Below are positions 4,502 through 14,384 of a stretch of DNA of 64,000 bases, piece by piece (the stretch's first letter is position 1; the number at the start of each line of letters is the position of its first letter). The stretch spans positions 352,001-416,000 of the forward strand of contig CAVSQW010000006.1 of assembly GCA_963730185.1 (NCBI GenBank), given 5' to 3'. Source of the DNA: an uncultured Gemmatimonadales bacterium. Its GTDB lineage: Bacteria; Gemmatimonadota; Gemmatimonadetes; Gemmatimonadales; GWC2-71-9. Below the pieces are notes generated by a model, which was not told the origin of the DNA, did no database searches, and was given only the letters and a program-made list of their open reading frames with translations. The position numbers and the translations under genes are program-made.

Positions 4502-5326
4502 ATGAGGACCGATCGAATCACCGTCGACGGGGTGACCCTGGAGAGCCGCTGGATCGGGCCGGGGCCGGCCGACGCGCCTACGATCGTGATGCTCCATGAG
4601 GGACTCGGCTCGGCCGGGCTCTGGGGCCGCTTTCCCGACGAGCTTGCCCGGGTGAGCGGATGTGGAGTCTTCGTCTATTCGCGCGCGGGCTATGGCCGAT
4701 CCGATCCGATTGCTTTGCCTCGTCCCCTGAGCTACATGCACGACGAGGCGCTCGGCGTGTTGCCGAGCGTGCTGTCGTTGATCGGCTTCGAGCGGGGCCT
4801 GCTCCTGGGACACAGCGACGGTGCCTCGATCGCCACCCTCTATGCCGGCGGCATCGAGGACCACCGGGTGCGCGGCCTGATTCTCCTCGCCCCCCATTTC
4901 TTCGTCGAGGAGCTGGGGATCCGGAGCATCGAGCAGGCCCGATCGGCGTACCAGGAGGGCGATCTTCGTGAGCGCCTCGCCCGCCACCATGGGGACAACG
5001 TGGACACCGCGTTTTGGGGCTGGAGCCGCGCCTGGCTCGATCCCGAGTTTCGCGGGTGGGACATTCGCGAGTCCCTGGGTTACATCCGGGTCCCGATCCT
5101 CATCGTTCAGGGCACGGCGGATCAGTACGGCACCACGGCCCAGATCGAGGCCGCGCAGGAGGAGACCTACTGCCCCGTGGACGTGGCGCTGATCGACGGT
5201 GCGGGTCACGCCCCTCACCTGGAGCGGCCGGTCGAGACGGTGACCGCGGTCGCCACCTTTCTCGAAACGCTGCTCGTGACGATGGGCGAAGGTGCTCGGT
5301 CGGCGGCGGGAGGCTCGACCCCATGA
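4502..5326 (+). CDS. alpha/beta hydrolase, box-cluster associated (putative lactonase/thioesterase)
   Basis: LHEGLGS, GHSDG nucleophile motif, GHAPH; ATGA-coupled to boxC. Confidence 0.88.
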   Translation: MRTDRITVDGVTLESRWIGPGPADAPTIVMLHEGLGSAGLWGRFPDELARVSGCGVFVYSRAGYGRSDPIALPRPLSYMHDEALGVLPSVLSLIGFERGLLLGHSDGASIATLYAGGIEDHRVRGLILLAPHFFVEELGIRSIEQARSAYQEGDLRERLARHHGDNVDTAFWGWSRAWLDPEFRGWDIRESLGYIRVPILIVQGTADQYGTTAQIEAAQEETYCPVDVALIDGAGHAPHLERPVETVTAVATFLETLLVTMGEGARSAAGGSTP

Positions 5327-7006
5327 CGACGGCCACCGCCCGCGGCTCGGAGCCAAGGATCGACTTCCAGACCCGGCCGGACGACTACCGGCACTGGAGG
5401 CTCGAGATCGACGGGCCGATCGCCTTTCTCACCATGGCCGTGTCGGAGGCCGGCGGCCTGTTTCCCGGCTACGAGCTCAAGATGAACTCGTACGACCTGG
5501 GCGTCGACATCGAGCTCCACGACGCGGTGCAGCGGCTCCGCTTCGAACACCCGGCGGTCAAGGTGGTGGTGCTCCGGTCCGCGCTGGAGCGGGTCTTCTG
5601 CGCCGGCGCGAATATCCGGATGCTCTCGCAGGCGAGCCACCCTCACAAGGTCAACTTCTGCAAGTTCACCAACGAGACCCGGAACGCGATCGAGGACGGC
5701 GGGCGCCGAGAGCGGTCAGCGCTACCTGGCGGCGGTGAGCGGCAGCGCGGCGGGCGGCGGCTACGAGCTCGCCTTGGCGGCCGACCACATCATGCTGGTG
5801 GACGATCGGAGCTCATCGGTCTCGTTTCCCGAGACGCCGCTGCTCGCGGTGCTACCGGGGACCGGCGGCCTCACCCGTCTGGTCGACAAGCGCAAGGTCC
5901 GCCGCGACCGGGCCGACGTGTTCTCGACCCTCGAGGAAGGCATTCGGGGCCAGCGGGCGGTGGCGTGGCGGCTCGTCGACGAGGCGGTCCCCAAGTCGGC
6001 CTGGGACTCCGCCGTCCGCGCTCGCGCCCTCGAGCTGGCGGACCGGTCGGATCGTCCGGACGGCGCCAGCGGCGTGGTGCTCCATCCGCTCCAGCGGACC
6101 TTCGGCGCCGACCGGGTGAGCTACCGCTACGTCGAGGTCGAGATCGACCGCGCCGGACGCCTCGCCCATCTTCGAGTACGGGGTCCCGCCGAATCGGCGC
6201 CGGCATCCCCGGAGCAGATCGCGGTCGAGGGCGATCGGTTCTGGCCGCTCGCCCTGGCTCGGGAGCTGGACGACGCCATCCTCCACCTCCGGCTGAACGA
6301 GCCGGAGATCGGTCAGCTCCTGCTGCACACGAGCGGCGACCCCGTGGCGGTGCAGTCGTACGATGCCCTGCTCGAGGCGGGCGTGGGGGACTGGCTGGTG
6401 CGCGAGATTCGCCTTCTCTGGAAGCGGGTGCTGAAGCGGCTCGACCTGACCTCCCGTACTCTGATCGCGTTGATCGAGCCGGGCAGCTGCTTCGCGGGAA
6501 CGCTGGCCGAGCTGGCGTTCGCGGCCGATCGGTCGGTGATGGTGGATGGCACCCTGAGCGGCGACCCCTACCCCGCCCCGGTCCTGGTGCTGGGCTCGAC
6601 CAACTTCGGGACCTACCCCATGAGCAACGGACTCTCCCGACTCGCGACCCGATTCCTGGGCGAGCCCGAGAGCGTCGGGCGCGCCCGGGAACGGCTTGGT
6701 GAGCCGCTCGACGCCGAGTCCGCCGACACGCTCGGGCTCGTGACCTTCATCTTCGACGACACCGACTGGGCCGACGAGATCCGGATCATGCTGGAGGAGC
6801 GCGCCAGCTTCTCGCCCGACGCGCTCACCGGCATGGAGGCCAATCTCCGCTTCGCCGGACCCGAAACGATGGAAACCAAGATCTTCGGACGCTTGACCGC
6901 CTGGCAGAACTGGATCTTCCAGCGACCCAACGCGGCCGGCGACGAGGGCGCGCTCAAGCGCTACGGCACGGGCGTGCAGCCGACCTACGACCGGAAGCGG
7001 GTGTGA
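5323..7006 (+). CDS. boxC: 2,3-epoxybenzoyl-CoA dihydrolase; one extra base near 5698 splits the ORF
   Basis: YELKMNSYDLGVDIELHDAVQRLRFEHP, HKVNFCKFTNETRN, ERASFSPDALTGMEANLRF, IFGRLTAWQNWIFQRPNA are BoxC motifs; removing one G restores ESGQRYLAAVSGSAAGGGYEL. Confidence 0.92.
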
Positions 7007-7009
7007 TCG

Positions 7010-8458
<1,449 letters not shown>

Positions 8459-10532: not shown

Positions 10533-11696
10533 TCAGTATCTCGGGATCGACGGGTCGACCTCGGCGCTCCACGCCGTGATCCCGCCAGCCAGGTTCCAAA
10601 CCCGGGTGAATCCTTCCAGCGCCAGCAGCGCCACCGCCTGGGCGCTCCGCGCGCCCCCCTTGCAGTAGATCACGATGTCCTGATCGCGGGGCAGCGAGGG
10701 GATCGTCTCGGGAAAGTCCGCCAACGGGACCAGCCGGGCCGGCCCGAGGTGCCCGATCGCCCACTCGAAGGGCTCCCGGACGTCGATCAGGAGCGGATCG
10801 TCGCCCCGCTCGATCCGCCGGGCCAGCTCGCGGACCGAGAGCTCCTGGAGGGTCGGCCCGGTCGCGGGGGTGTCGCAGGCCACCTCGACCTCGCACAGCT
10901 CCAGGATTTCCCGGGTGCCGCAGGCCGGGCAGGCCGGATCCTTCCGGATCTTCACCTTCCGGAACTCGGCTCCTAACGCGTCGACCAGCAGCAGCTCGCC
11001 GATCAGCGGCCGGCCGATCCCGAGCAGGAGCTTGAGCGCCTCGGTCGCCTGGATCGTCCCCACCAGCCCCGGCAACACACCCAGCACCCCGCCCTCGGCG
11101 CAGTTCGGCACCGCGCCCGCCGGCGGCGGGTTCCGGAAGAGGCAGCGGTAGCACGGCCCCTCCTCCGTCGCGAACACCGACGCCTGGCCCTCGAAGCGGA
11201 AGATGCTCCCGTACGCGTTCGGCACGCCCAGGATCACGCAGGCGTCGTTGACCAAATAGCGGGTCCCGAAGTTGTCGGTCCCGTCGACCACGACGTCGTA
11301 TCCATGGATGATCTCCAGCGCGTTCTCCGCCGAGAGCCGGGTGTCGTATCGCTCCACCTTCACGTGCGGGTTCAGATCCTTGAGCCGGGCTTCGGCCGAA
11401 TCCAGCTTCGAGGTCCCCACCGTGCTGGTGCCGTGGAGGATCTGCCGCTGGAGATTGGTCTCGTCCACCCGGTCGAAGTCCACGAGGCCGAGATGGCCCA
11501 CCCCGGCGGCGGCCAGGTAGAGCGCCACCGGCGAGCCCAACCCGCCGGCGCCGACGATCAGCACCCGGCTCTGCTTGAGCCGGCGCTGACCGTCGATCCC
11601 GACGTCGGGGAGGATCAGGTGCCGGCTGTAGCGAAGCAGCTCGGCGTTGGAGAGCGACGGCGCGGCGTCGATGATCGCGGTGCCCATGGCGCTCAC
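10533..11696 (-). CDS. moeB: sulfur-carrier adenylyltransferase/sulfurtransferase MoeB/MoeZ (ThiF + rhodanese)
   Basis: RYSRHL, GAGGLG, NLQRQ, PCYRC, CAEGGVLG, CPAC; rhodanese CKGGARS. Confidence 0.93.
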   Translation of the reverse strand: MSAMGTAIIDAAPSLSNAELLRYSRHLILPDVGIDGQRRLKQSRVLIVGAGGLGSPVALYLAAAGVGHLGLVDFDRVDETNLQRQILHGTSTVGTSKLDSAEARLKDLNPHVKVERYDTRLSAENALEIIHGYDVVVDGTDNFGTRYLVNDACVILGVPNAYGSIFRFEGQASVFATEEGPCYRCLFRNPPPAGAVPNCAEGGVLGVLPGLVGTIQATEALKLLLGIGRPLIGELLLVDALGAEFRKVKIRKDPACPACGTREILELCEVEVACDTPATGPTLQELSVRELARRIERGDDPLLIDVREPFEWAIGHLGPARLVPLADFPETIPSLPRDQDIVIYCKGGARSAQAVALLALEGFTRVWNLAGGITAWSAEVDPSIPRY

Positions 11697-11968
11697 CCTC
11701 CGGCGATGGCGGGCACGAGGCTCAGCTCGTCGCCATCGGTCACGGGCGCGCCGGTCCCACCCAGGAACCGGACGTCCTCGTCGTTCAGGTAAATGGTGAC
11801 GAACGGGTTGCGATCGTCGGTGGCTTCGGTCAGACGCTGGCCCAGCTCGGGATGCCTGGCGCCGAGCTCGGCCAGCACGTCGCCGACGGTGCCGCCGGCG
11901 AGCGAGAGGGCTCGGACGCCGCCGGCATAGCGACTCAGGATGCTCGGGAGACGAACGGTCACGGCCAT
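11693..11968 (-). CDS. ubiquitin-like sulfur carrier protein (MoaD/ThiS/CysO family)
   Basis: 91 aa, IYLNDEDVRF (CysO-like), C-terminal PAIAGG. Confidence 0.92.
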   Translation of the reverse strand: MAVTVRLPSILSRYAGGVRALSLAGGTVGDVLAELGARHPELGQRLTEATDDRNPFVTIYLNDEDVRFLGGTGAPVTDGDELSLVPAIAGG

Positions 11969-11992
11969 GATGCGATTCCTTTCAAAGACAGG

Positions 11993-13240
11993 TCAGGCGG
12001 CGTCGACCAACGAGACGACCTCGCGGAGCCGCGGGTTGACGATGGGAAGGTCGGCGGCGGCGCCGGCGACCAGGTCCGGGGTCTTGAGACCATGAGCGGT
12101 GATGCAGAGCACCACCTCGTCGGCCGGGCCCAGCCGCTTCCGCTCGGCCAGGGCCAGGGCGGCGGCGGTGGTCACCCCGCCGGCCGACTCCGTGAAGATG
12201 CCGGTCGTCTCGGCCAGCACCCGGACACCGGCGACGATTTGGGGATCGGTCACGGCCGCGCCGCCACCCAACGAATCGCGGATGGCACGCACCGCCCGGG
12301 GGCCGTCGGCGGGGTTGCCGATCGCGAGCGACCGGGCCACGGTGTTCGGCGTGACCGGCACGATCCGGCCATCCTCTCGACCGAGGGCGTCGATGATCGG
12401 TGAGCATCCCGACGCCTGCGCCCCGAAGAGCCGCGGCGGCGGATCGTTCACCAGACCGTCGTGGATGAATTCCCGGAAGCCCTTGGCCAGCTTGGTCAGA
12501 AGCGACCCGCCCGCCATCGGCGCCACCACGGCCGTGGGCAGGCGCCAACCGAGCTGCTCGGCGATCTCGAACGCCACCGTCTTCGAGCCCTCGGCGTAGT
12601 AGGCCCGGAGATTCACGTTGGCGATCCCCCACGAGAACCGATCGGCCAGCTGCACGCAGAGCCGGTTTACGTCGTCGTAGGTACCGCGGACCCGGATCAC
12701 CCGAGCGCCGTGGATCGCGCTCGCCAGGATCTTGCCGGGCTCGAGATCTTCGGGAATCAGGATCCAGGCAGGCAGCCCGGCTCGGGCCGCCTGGGCGGCG
12801 ACCGCGTTGGCCAGGTTGCCGGTGGAAGCGCAGGCCAGGGTCTCGCAGCCGAGTCCGACGGCCGCGTTGATCGCGCTCGCCACCACCCGGTCCTTGAACG
12901 AAAGCGAGGGATGGGAGACGGTGTCGTTCTTGATCCAACAGCGCGCTACGCCGAGACGCTCGGCCAGCGCTGGCGCCTCGACCAGCGGCGTGAACCCGGT
13001 GTCGAACGAGTGGACCGGCGAGCCCGCGAACGGCAGCCATTCCCGATAGCGCCAGAGCGAGGGCCAGCGGGTGGCGATCTCGGCCCGGTCGGGGCGGGGT
13101 CGGTCACGGGGGTAGATCGGCTCGAGCGGCCCGAAGCACTCGCCGCAGATGGCCTGTGGGAGCGGTGGGTACTCGGTTCCGCAGTGGCCGCAACGGAGCG
13201 GCAGCGGCTCGGTGGTCGCCGGGAGCGACGCGACGGTCAT
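11993..13240 (-). CDS. thrC: threonine-synthase-family PLP enzyme (possibly O-phosphohomoserine sulfhydrylase)
   Basis: N-terminal CxxC...CxxC, PSLSFKDR PLP lysine, ASTGN, EGSKT, SLAIGNP, TAHGLK. Confidence 0.88.
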   Translation of the reverse strand: MTVASLPATTEPLPLRCGHCGTEYPPLPQAICGECFGPLEPIYPRDRPRPDRAEIATRWPSLWRYREWLPFAGSPVHSFDTGFTPLVEAPALAERLGVARCWIKNDTVSHPSLSFKDRVVASAINAAVGLGCETLACASTGNLANAVAAQAARAGLPAWILIPEDLEPGKILASAIHGARVIRVRGTYDDVNRLCVQLADRFSWGIANVNLRAYYAEGSKTVAFEIAEQLGWRLPTAVVAPMAGGSLLTKLAKGFREFIHDGLVNDPPPRLFGAQASGCSPIIDALGREDGRIVPVTPNTVARSLAIGNPADGPRAVRAIRDSLGGGAAVTDPQIVAGVRVLAETTGIFTESAGGVTTAAALALAERKRLGPADEVVLCITAHGLKTPDLVAGAAADLPIVNPRLREVVSLVDAA

Positions 13241-13291
13241 GGGGTCTTCTCTTTCCGCCGCGCGCTCGGATCATCCTGGGGCCCGAACGCG

Positions 13292-13324
13292 AAAAACGTC
13301 CGGTGCCAAGAAGACACGCAGACG
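13292..13324 (-). terminator. intrinsic terminator in the riboswitch expression platform
   Basis: CGUCUG(C)GUGUC-UUCUU-GGCACCGGACG followed by UUUUU; 11-bp stem. Confidence 0.65.
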
Positions 13325-13327
13325 CGT

Positions 13328-13379
13328 GGCTTTTTAGCGGTTGATTTACGTGGCCGCAATACGCCTCAAATCGCCACGA
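13328..13379 (-). ncRNA. SAM-II riboswitch aptamer
   Basis: UCGUGGC-GAUUUGA-GGCGUAUUGCG-GCCACG-UAAAUCAAC-CGCUAAAAAGCC; P1 CGUGGC/GCCACG, conserved GAUUU, UUGC and GCUAAA, pseudoknot GGC/GCC. Confidence 0.88.
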
Positions 13380-13398
13380 GCTTCAGTTGTCGGGACCC

Positions 13399-13427
13399 AA
13401 AGTATGGACCCGACCCGGAACACGCAA
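13399..13427 (-). promoter_or_regulatory. putative sigma70 promoter upstream of the SAM-II leader
   Basis: TTGCGT-17-TACTTT. Confidence 0.45.
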
Positions 13428-13502: not shown

Positions 13503-14384
13503 GTGCCCGAGCTGCCCGACATCGTCACCTACGTGGAAGCCCTCGGCGAGCGGATCGTCGGGGCGCGGCTCGAGGACGTCCGGCTCAAGAGTCCGTTCCT
13601 GCTCCGGAGCTTCGATCCGCCCCTCGCCGGGGCGAAGGGACGGGTGGTCCGGAAGATCGATCGGATCGGCAAGCGGATCGTCATCGGGTTCGAAGACGAG
13701 CTCTGGCTGGTGATTCACCTGATGATCGCCGGCCGCTTTCACTGGAAACGGCCGGCCGCCAAGCTCGGCTCGAAGATCAACCTGGCGGCCTTCGACTTCG
13801 CGGCGGGGACGCTGCTGCTCACCGAGGCCGGCTCCAAGAAGCGAGCCTCGCTCCACGTGGTCGGCGCTCGTGCCGAGCTGGAGCAGTTCCGCCGGGGCGG
13901 CATCGACGTGCGGAGCGCCACCGCGGCCCAGTTCGCCGAGCGGCTCCGGGTCGAGAATCACACGGTGAAACGATCGCTCACCGACCCGCGCTTCTTCGAC
14001 GGGATCGGCAACGCCTACTCCGACGAGATCCTCCACGCGGCGCGGCTCTCGCCGCTCAAGCTCACCAGCAAGCTCACCGACGACGAGATCGCCGCCCTCC
14101 GGACCGCCGCCGTCCGGACCCTCGACGCCTGGATCGTCCGGCTCCGCGAACAGCGATCCGGTGCCTTCCCCGAGAAGGTCACCGCCTTCCGCCCCGAGAT
14201 GGCGGTCCACGGCAGGTTCGGCCAGCCCTGCCCCGACTGCGGCGCCCCGGTGCAGCGGATTCGCTACGCGGACAACGAGACCAACTACTGCGCCCGCTGC
14301 CAGACCGGCGGGCGGCTCCTGGCGGACCGGGCGATGTCCCGCCTGCTCCGCGACGACTGGCCCCGGTCGCTCGATGAGCTCTGA
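13503..14384 (+). CDS. Fpg/Nei family DNA glycosylase
   Basis: N-terminal [26 protein letters not shown] (H2TH), zinc finger CPDC...CARC. Confidence 0.92.

What the first reader, a model, noticed from the sequence alone, without database searches (positions are those of the whole stretch)
10533..13379. SAM-riboswitch-controlled 'threonine synthase'-sulfur carrier-MoeZ operon: probable alternative homocysteine/methionine pathway
Seen: a SAM-II aptamer leads a tightly packed ThrC-like PLP enzyme, a CysO/MoaD-like carrier ending GG, and a MoeB-rhodanese. Known: MoeZ thiocarboxylates such carriers, and mycobacterial CysM/CysO sulfhydrylates O-phosphoserine this way; SAM riboswitches mark Met/SAM supply genes, not threonine or Moco genes. 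I recall a Streptomyces O-phosphohomoserine route (MetM/MetO) with similar logic, which should be verified. Inference: the enzyme performs gamma-replacement on O-phosphohomoserine with carrier-COSH to give homocysteine, bypassing MetA/X and MetB/Y. No JAB/Mec peptidase is in the window; the convergent M20 has a signal peptide and is unlikely to fill that role.
Basis: partly seen in the sequence, partly recalled or inferred. Interest (0 to 1): 0.82.

Follow-up and report, generated by a model that had tools for sequence, protein, structure and literature searches.

The report
SAM-II-controlled MetM/MetO homocysteine operon
A SAM-type RNA switch motif sits in front of a gene labelled 'threonine synthase', a small sulfur-carrier gene and its loading enzyme, and this trio most likely makes the methionine precursor homocysteine by a route published for Streptomyces in 2024, so the database label is probably wrong but the pathway is not new.

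Summary
Observation confirmed. A SAM-II aptamer (Rfam RF00521, 39.8 bits, cut-off 36) leads three minus-strand genes: a ThrC-like PLP enzyme (415 aa), a 91-aa carrier ending GG, and a MoeB-rhodanese. The host is probably a Gemmatimonadales MAG, 82% complete. It has a separate thrB-thrC pair. Its two other SAM-II switches lead methionine synthases. No MetA, true MetX, MetY or Mec was found. The enzyme falls in a well-supported clade whose members sit beside carriers (67 of 80 loci) and behind SAM-I or SAM-II switches in several phyla. An actinobacterial SAM-I copy is 49% identical. Best reading (about 0.85): a MetM/MetO route from O-phosphohomoserine to homocysteine (Hasebe 2024, seen only through citing papers). 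Small differences from the Streptomyces system: SAM-II control, MoeZ in the operon, and no Mec in 20 of 22 carrier-route genomes. Against: no anti-correlation with metY-metX, no homoserine dehydrogenase found in this assembly, and a cyanobacterial homolog reportedly makes threonine. This scan already noted the system on other DNA (87 notes matched my search words), including in Gemmatimonadota. Verdict: new member of a known kind, low interest.

The parts
13401..13427 (-). Putative sigma-70-type promoter (-35 at 13427-13422, -10 at 13406-13401)
   Evidence: Similar element by pattern in 16 of 17 homologous leaders (the 17th is cut by its contig end). The consensus scanner found no promoter. 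Inferred.
13314..13387 (-). SAM-II riboswitch aptamer (H-type pseudoknot: P1 13378-13373 with 13354-13349; 3' tail 13338-13328)
   Evidence: Rfam RF00521 39.8 bits, cut-off 36; pairing test; motif upstream of 19 of 21 homologous genes and further upstream of the other 2
13308..13330 (-). Candidate expression platform: a second copy of the P1 3' strand (13330-13325) overlapping a 5-bp terminator-like hairpin (13328-13315) and a U-rich tail
   Evidence: Terminator scan; stem columns nearly invariant in 17 leaders; folding of the nascent RNA. Predicted only.
11993..13240 (-). MetM-like, ThrC-fold PLP enzyme (P0001, 415 aa); likely O-phosphohomoserine:carrier-thiocarboxylate homocysteine synthase
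   Evidence: 49% to the SAM-I-led actinobacterial copy; tree; clade motif
11693..11968 (-). MetO-like ubiquitin-fold sulfur carrier (P0002, 91 aa), ending in GG as translated
   Evidence: 42% to the actinobacterial carrier; 19 of 19 carriers found in 22 relatives' loci end in GG
10533..11687 (-). MoeZ-type adenylyltransferase-rhodanese (P0003, 384 aa; an in-frame GTG lies at 11696)
   Evidence: Pfam ThiF 20-255 and Rhodanese 285-376; nucleotide-binding loop, two CxxC and rhodanese Cys342 present (motif meanings recalled)

Best explanation
This SAM-II-led three-gene operon most likely makes homocysteine from O-phospho-L-homoserine by the MetM/MetO thiocarboxylate route. Steps: (1) MoeZ would adenylate the carrier's C-terminal glycine and, through its rhodanese cysteine, convert it to a thiocarboxylate (domains shown; chemistry from family knowledge; sulfur donor unknown, probably cysteine-derived). 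(2) The PLP enzyme would eliminate phosphate from O-phosphohomoserine made by the genome's ThrB and take the carrier's sulfur at the gamma carbon instead of water at the beta carbon (inferred from the published MetM). (3) Homocysteine would be released without a JAB protease, since none was found and the carrier needs no trimming (inferred; the releasing step is unexplained). (4) MetH or the YitJ-type methyltransferase, both behind SAM-II switches in this genome (shown), would methylate it. (5) SAM would switch the operon off, probably by letting a short terminator form once the pseudoknot captures the P1 5' strand (predicted, moderately supported).
For: SAM-II leader above threshold with intact pseudoknot. 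The genome's other two SAM-II hits precede metH and a YitJ-type homocysteine methyltransferase, so all 3 form a methionine regulon. A separate ThrC, 32% identical, lies directly after homoserine kinase, with no Rfam riboswitch in that 8-kb locus. MetA, true MetX and MetY were not found. Enzyme-carrier-MoeZ order holds in 17 of 22 loci of relatives. Across phyla a carrier lies beside the enzyme in 67 of 80 loci; of 16 of those 80 scanned, 8 have SAM-I, 4 SAM-II and 4 none, so two unrelated SAM switches lead the same clade. Some Gemmatimonadales operons add homoserine kinase or homoserine dehydrogenase. A Nonomuraea locus has SAM-I, a 49% enzyme and a 42% carrier. Quick tree: 41 rows form a clade with SH-aLRT 100, apart from thrB-linked ThrC. 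The clade has NxNLRxYY before EGxKT, where solved threonine synthases have NSVNPYR. Predicted enzyme-carrier complex: weak support, score 0.44 against best control 0.00; that mark was reached by 116 of 157 solved and 2 of 215 mismatched pairs, but at 0.60 or under by only 18 of the 157 and by both mismatches; runs agree in at least 80% of contacts, partner pLDDT at least 79. Literature.
Against: No activity was measured, and the characterised S. albulus MetM could not be fetched, so orthology rests on a Nonomuraea stand-in that sits on a long branch. The protein passes the thrC model cut-off. A Microcystis ThrC 51.6% identical to MetM was reported to make threonine in vitro and not to act fully as MetM in cells. 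There is no anti-correlation with metY-metX: 5 of 22 genomes with the enzyme and 10 of 39 without it have them, and 29 of 61 have neither. Homoserine dehydrogenase was not found in this assembly, although 18 of 21 same-genus genomes have it. Three cystathionine synthase/lyase-family genes are present and none was assigned a role. All absences come from an 82% complete genome. The antiterminator dominates in only 9 of 17 leaders.
Confidence: 0.85

Rival explanations
1. The enzyme is a second, real threonine synthase, and the carrier and MoeZ serve another sulfur sink such as thiamine, molybdenum cofactor or a CysM-type cysteine synthase.
For: Passes TIGR00260; best solved relatives are threonine synthases; the Microcystis homolog was reported to make threonine; CysK/CysM-like genes exist elsewhere in the genome.
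Against: The thrB-linked ThrC already fills that role. SAM switches of two classes lead the clade. Thiamine has its own ThiS beside thiG. No MoaE was found. In the four genomes with a JAB gene, the three loci that could be read show a separate CysM-Mec-carrier-MoeZ operon.
Confidence: 0.05
2. The enzyme does carrier-dependent gamma-replacement, but the carrier-homocysteine adduct rearranges to an amide and needs an unidentified non-JAB peptidase, or the end product is another sulfur compound.
For: In the analogous CysM/CysO system Mec cleaves the adduct. Mec was not found in 20 of 22 genomes with this enzyme, so release is unexplained.
Against: No extra gene travels with the operon in the genus. 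No M20 hit in 109 loci, though most Gemmatimonadales loci end at moeZ and could not show it. GapMind assigns Mec to carrier maturation rather than release.
Confidence: 0.06
3. The enzyme is bifunctional: it makes homocysteine when loaded carrier is present and threonine (or 2-oxobutyrate) otherwise, and the side activity matters in the cell.
For: Dual activities reported for the cyanobacterial homolog; shared substrate and fold.
Against: All loci examined keep the carrier or SAM link, and this genome keeps a dedicated ThrC; the cyanobacterial data came without loaded carrier as far as the passages show.
Confidence: 0.04

Closest known systems
MetM/MetO (with MoeZ and Mec) of Streptomyces albulus, Hasebe et al. 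2024, Appl Environ Microbiol 90:e01247-24 (not held; known here from passages of GapMind 2026 and PMC12172450)
   Same: ThrC-homologous enzyme next to a sulfur carrier, MoeZ as loader, upstream SAM riboswitch, O-phosphohomoserine as likely substrate.
   Different: SAM-II here (the actinobacterial stand-in has SAM-I); moeZ is in the operon; the carrier ends in GG; no Mec found; phylum Gemmatimonadota. Direct identity to S. albulus MetM was not measured.
CysM/CysO/MoeZ/Mec cysteine route of mycobacteria (passages of PMC3227635)
   Same: PLP enzyme using a protein thiocarboxylate on an O-phospho amino acid; same MoeZ type.
   Different: Cysteine-synthase family and beta-replacement there; ThrC family and inferred gamma-replacement here; Mec releases the product there.
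Threonine synthase ThrC (TIGR00260; PDB 1UIM, 2ZSJ, 6CGQ, 2D1F)
   Same: Fold, PLP lysine motif, probably the substrate.
   Different: Separate clade, different loop motifs, SAM and carrier context, and a thrB-linked ThrC elsewhere in the genome.
Cyanobacterial ThrC of Microcystis aeruginosa (PMC12172450)
   Same: MetM homolog next to a metO-like gene.
   Different: No SAM riboswitch; reported threonine synthase and deaminase activity; not compared by sequence here.
SAM-II riboswitch (RF00521)
   Same: H-type pseudoknot with P1, P2b and P2a; most SAM-II switches are transcriptional (PMC6061858).
   Different: Found in Gemmatimonadales; the candidate antiterminator uses a duplicate of the P1 3' strand.

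Membership tests
MetM/MetO route | ThrC-homologous PLP enzyme in a clade apart from threonine synthases | tested here: met
MetM/MetO route | Orthology to characterised S. albulus MetM | tested here: inconclusive
   S. albulus sequence not obtained; 49% to a SAM-I-led Nonomuraea copy in the same clade. That this copy is a MetM ortholog is inferred from its context.
MetM/MetO route | Adjacent sulfur carrier with GG motif | tested here: met
MetM/MetO route | MoeZ-type activator | tested here: met
   ThiF plus Rhodanese domains; below the PRK07878 and PRK07411 cut-offs, above PRK05690
MetM/MetO route | Upstream SAM riboswitch | tested here: met
   the class is SAM-II
MetM/MetO route | Mec/JAB protease for carrier maturation | tested here: not met
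   Not found in G000 or 21 same-genus genomes. An accessory step of the Streptomyces version; the carrier here already ends in GG.
MetM/MetO route | O-phosphohomoserine supply and downstream methionine synthase | tested here: inconclusive
   ThrB, MetH and YitJ present; homoserine dehydrogenase not found in an 82% complete assembly
MetM/MetO route | Carrier-dependent homocysteine formation | not testable with these tools
   Needs an enzyme assay; complex prediction gave only weak support
Threonine synthase ThrC | TIGR00260 above cut-off | tested here: met
   239 against 167 bits
Threonine synthase ThrC | NSxNPxR and GNxGN loops seen in solved ThrC, and thr-operon context | tested here: not met
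   NVNLRAYY and MAGGS instead; Tyr at the Arg position in 92 of 92 clade members that matched the pattern, 11 of 103 unmatched. The Arg's phosphate-binding role is recalled; one search gave no paper to confirm it.
Cysteate synthase (TIGR03844) | Model score above cut-off | tested here: not met
   49 against 325 bits
SAM-II riboswitch RF00521 | Covariance score and H-type pseudoknot | tested here: met
SAM-II riboswitch RF00521 | SAM binding and SAM-dependent switching | not testable with these tools
   Folding models only

The most novel reading that the evidence does not exclude
The three genes are a complete, Mec-free homocysteine synthase: the MetM enzyme itself frees homocysteine from the carrier, so no JAB protease is needed, and the module was captured by a SAM-II switch that works through a duplicated P1 strand. 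It would be the smallest portable version of the route. In sister genomes lacking homoserine dehydrogenase the same operon may also make its homoserine with a PanB paralog and an aminotransferase.
Probability: 0.55. Interest if true: 0.45.

Novelty: new member of a known kind. Interest (0 to 1): 0.25.

Why it matters
It corrects a 'threonine synthase' label and fills a methionine-pathway gap in Gemmatimonadales that lack MetA, MetX and MetY. The self-contained three-gene, Mec-free layout makes one open mechanistic question easy to test: how homocysteine leaves the carrier. The pathway itself is published and this scan has seen it many times, so a specialist would not be surprised.

Tried and rejected
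Primary paper (Hasebe 2024): not held by DOI or PMC id; its supplements, unseen, may already list Gemmatimonadota or Mec-free cases. S. albulus MetM: no Streptomyces locus came up. Anti-correlation with metY-metX: tested, not found. Translational anti-Shine-Dalgarno switch: rejected; ribosome-site accessibility was 0.84 with and without the aptamer locked in the window copy, and fell by more than 0.1 in none of 14 leaders. Leader peptide: rejected by eye, since the U-run length varies and breaks the frame. MetX-like gene after yitJ: it is a PRK06489 hydrolase (342 against 305 bits) with a leader-like N-terminus, not MetX. Carrier as MoaD: no MoaE found. N-terminal Cys cluster as a clade marker: rejected, the thrB-linked ThrC has one too. 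Searches had the structure string out of register; one search is the valid count. The careful tree did not finish; the quick tree is reported. Rfam called only 6 of 20 relatives' leaders above threshold; the motif search with up to 2 mismatches found 19 of 21. Literature searches: SAM-II with Gemmatimonad and terminator gave 0 papers; O-phosphohomoserine with sulfur carrier protein and homocysteine gave 1; PanB with 4-hydroxy-2-oxobutanoate and homoserine gave 1 engineering preprint, listing only. No fold prediction was run, as a ThrC fold would not separate the readings.

Full report
Observation. The window is G000:C6:352001-416000 of a 5.27-Mb, 17-contig assembly, 82% complete. The named best hits are Gemmatimonadales, so the host is probably of that order. 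Rfam finds one RNA in the window: a SAM-II aptamer at 13314-13387 (-), 39.8 bits against a cut-off of 36. Three genes follow on the same strand: a 415-aa PLP enzyme (11993-13240), a 91-aa ThiS-family protein ending AIAGG (11693-11968) and a 384-aa ThiF-rhodanese protein (10533-11687), with gaps of 24 and 5 nt. The enzyme passes the thrC model (239 against 167 bits) and fails the cysteate synthase model (49 against 325). Its closest solved relatives are threonine synthases.

The leader. On 15 homologous aptamers the 13-pair pseudoknot pairs in 99.5% of 194 cells; no shuffle of 500 reached this, slid registers gave 22-49%, and one P2a pair changes on both sides. Most columns never vary, so covariation is thin. 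In relatives, Rfam of 20 leaders above threshold; a motif search finds 19 of 21, and the other 2 lie at the head of longer operons. A 5-bp hairpin with a U-rich tail abuts the aptamer (13328-13308). Its 5' arm overlaps a second copy of the P1 3' strand. In the free nascent RNA the P1 5' strand pairs with that second copy with probability 0.93 in the window's leader (0.47 once eight more bases are added) and above 0.9 in 9 of 17 leaders; in the other 8 the hairpin already forms without ligand. So a SAM-off terminator is plausible but not uniform. An anti-Shine-Dalgarno model found no support. Most SAM-II switches are transcriptional according to passages of PMC6061858.

The genome. A second ThrC, 32% identical, follows homoserine kinase at C8:387762-389926 and has no Rfam riboswitch in its locus. 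The two other SAM-II hits precede metH and a YitJ-type homocysteine methyltransferase. Not found: MetA, true MetX (the one hit is a PRK06489 hydrolase), MetY, Mec/JAB, MoaE, sulfite reductase and homoserine dehydrogenase. Present: three cystathionine synthase/lyase-family genes, three CysK/CBS-family genes, a ThiS beside thiG and a second, frameshifted moeZ. All absences are from an incomplete assembly.

Relatives. Of 61 genomes, 22 carry the enzyme at 62% identity or more (a fragment in G051 was not counted). In their 22 loci a carrier was seen in 19, all ending GG, and the order enzyme-carrier-MoeZ in 17. metY-metX occurs in 15 of 61 genomes, 5 of them with the enzyme; 29 have neither, and 22 of those also lack homoserine dehydrogenase. 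There is no anti-correlation. JAB proteins occur in 4 of 61 genomes, none of the 21 same-genus ones, and the three readable loci are separate CysM-Mec-carrier-MoeZ operons. Among 80 named loci from many phyla, 67 have a carrier and 12 a MoeB/MoeZ nearby; 26 of the 67 carriers end at GG. Of 16 of these loci scanned, 8 have SAM-I, 4 SAM-II and 4 none. Some Gemmatimonadales operons add homoserine kinase or dehydrogenase. A Nonomuraea gerenzanensis record has SAM-I, an enzyme 49% identical and a carrier 42% identical. A quick tree of 54 of 119 extracted sequences puts the window's enzyme and 40 others, including the Nonomuraea one on a long branch, in a clade with SH-aLRT 100, apart from thrB-linked ThrC. 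The clade's loop motifs differ from solved ThrC. The predicted enzyme-carrier complex got weak support: 0.44 against a best control of 0.00. That mark was reached by 116 of 157 solved and 2 of 215 mismatched pairs, but at 0.60 or under by only 18 of the 157 and both mismatches; runs agreed in at least 80% of contacts and partner pLDDT was at least 79.

Mechanism. Shown: the parts, their conservation, the regulon and the separate ThrC. Inferred: MoeZ loads sulfur on the carrier; the enzyme replaces the phosphate of O-phosphohomoserine with that sulfur; homocysteine leaves without a JAB protease; MetH or YitJ methylates it; SAM shuts the operon off. The sulfur donor and the release step are open. 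Confidence 0.85. Rivals are a second threonine synthase (0.05), a route needing another peptidase or giving another product (0.06) and a bifunctional enzyme (0.04). The main outside caution is the Microcystis homolog, reported to make threonine and not to act fully as MetM in cells.

Comparison with what is known. GapMind 2026 (passages; supplement passages of PMC13759103) describes the S. albulus route with MetO, Mec, MoeZ and MetM and notes that MetM is often misannotated as threonine synthase. PMC12172450 (passages) implies that S. albulus metM has an upstream SAM riboswitch. The primary paper was not held; I read none of it, and my memory that MetM gives homocysteine directly is recall. 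PMC3227635 (passages) gives the CysM/CysO/Mec analogy. PMC10907184 was seen as passages. The operon works like MetM/MetO and meets every sequence-level feature except Mec; direct orthology to the characterised enzyme is untested. Earlier notes of this scan report the same system in other genomes, including Gemmatimonadota; they are not independent evidence.

Verdict. It is a new member of a known kind with minor twists (SAM-II control, operonic MoeZ, no Mec). Interest 0.25.

Noticed in passing
L144:3924-9238 (G055), L145:3739-10518 (G045), L049:2910-7837, L051:2909-7616: In several Gemmatimonadales the SAM-II operon also holds a PanB paralog, in two cases a class I aminotransferase, and often homoserine kinase. 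All 3 of the 61 relatives with the close paralog lack homoserine dehydrogenase and have the MetM-like enzyme. Of 8 more from a 251-genome class search, 7 lack the dehydrogenase and 7 have the full enzyme. Speculation: homoserine from pyruvate and a one-carbon unit. G000 has no close ortholog. An earlier scan note says the same (e1-7605501).
   Followed up: partly
L001:18406-18482 and L001:8849-8918 (G000:C13): The SAM-II leaders of metH and yitJ end in GC-rich hairpins with U tails whose loops are complementary to the aptamer's 3' tail, a second terminator design in the same genome. Equilibrium folding kept the hairpin with or without the aptamer locked, so switching was not shown.
   Followed up: partly
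G000:C15:451917-453043, C13:135737-138890, C17:37469-38132; window 5014-7006: Several genes are split by apparent frameshifts (second moeZ, yitJ, the PRK06489 hydrolase, a cysD-like gene, and a boxC-like gene in the window), which suggests indel errors in the assembly.
   Followed up: no
window 5014-8458 (+): Genes resembling benzoyl-CoA dihydrodiol lyase (boxC) and benzoyl-CoA epoxidase subunit B (boxB), read by eye from the translations; names recalled, not scanned.
   Followed up: no
window 13515-14384 (+): Fpg/Nei-family DNA glycosylase transcribed away from the operon; adjacent in only 3 other loci of 109, so not part of the system.
   Followed up: partly
L132, L133, L135: Separate CysM-Mec-carrier-MoeZ operons in a few Gemmatimonadales, with carrier and MoeZ apparently in one reading frame in L132 and L135.
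   Followed up: no
L053-L128: Many Acidobacteriota carriers have C-terminal extensions after GG, some Cys-rich, while a JAB gene was seen in only 2 of these loci; how they are trimmed was not examined.
   Followed up: no
L031-L038: Two further ThrC-like clades in Gemmatimonadales, without carrier or riboswitch in their loci, one next to an amino-acid permease.
   Followed up: no
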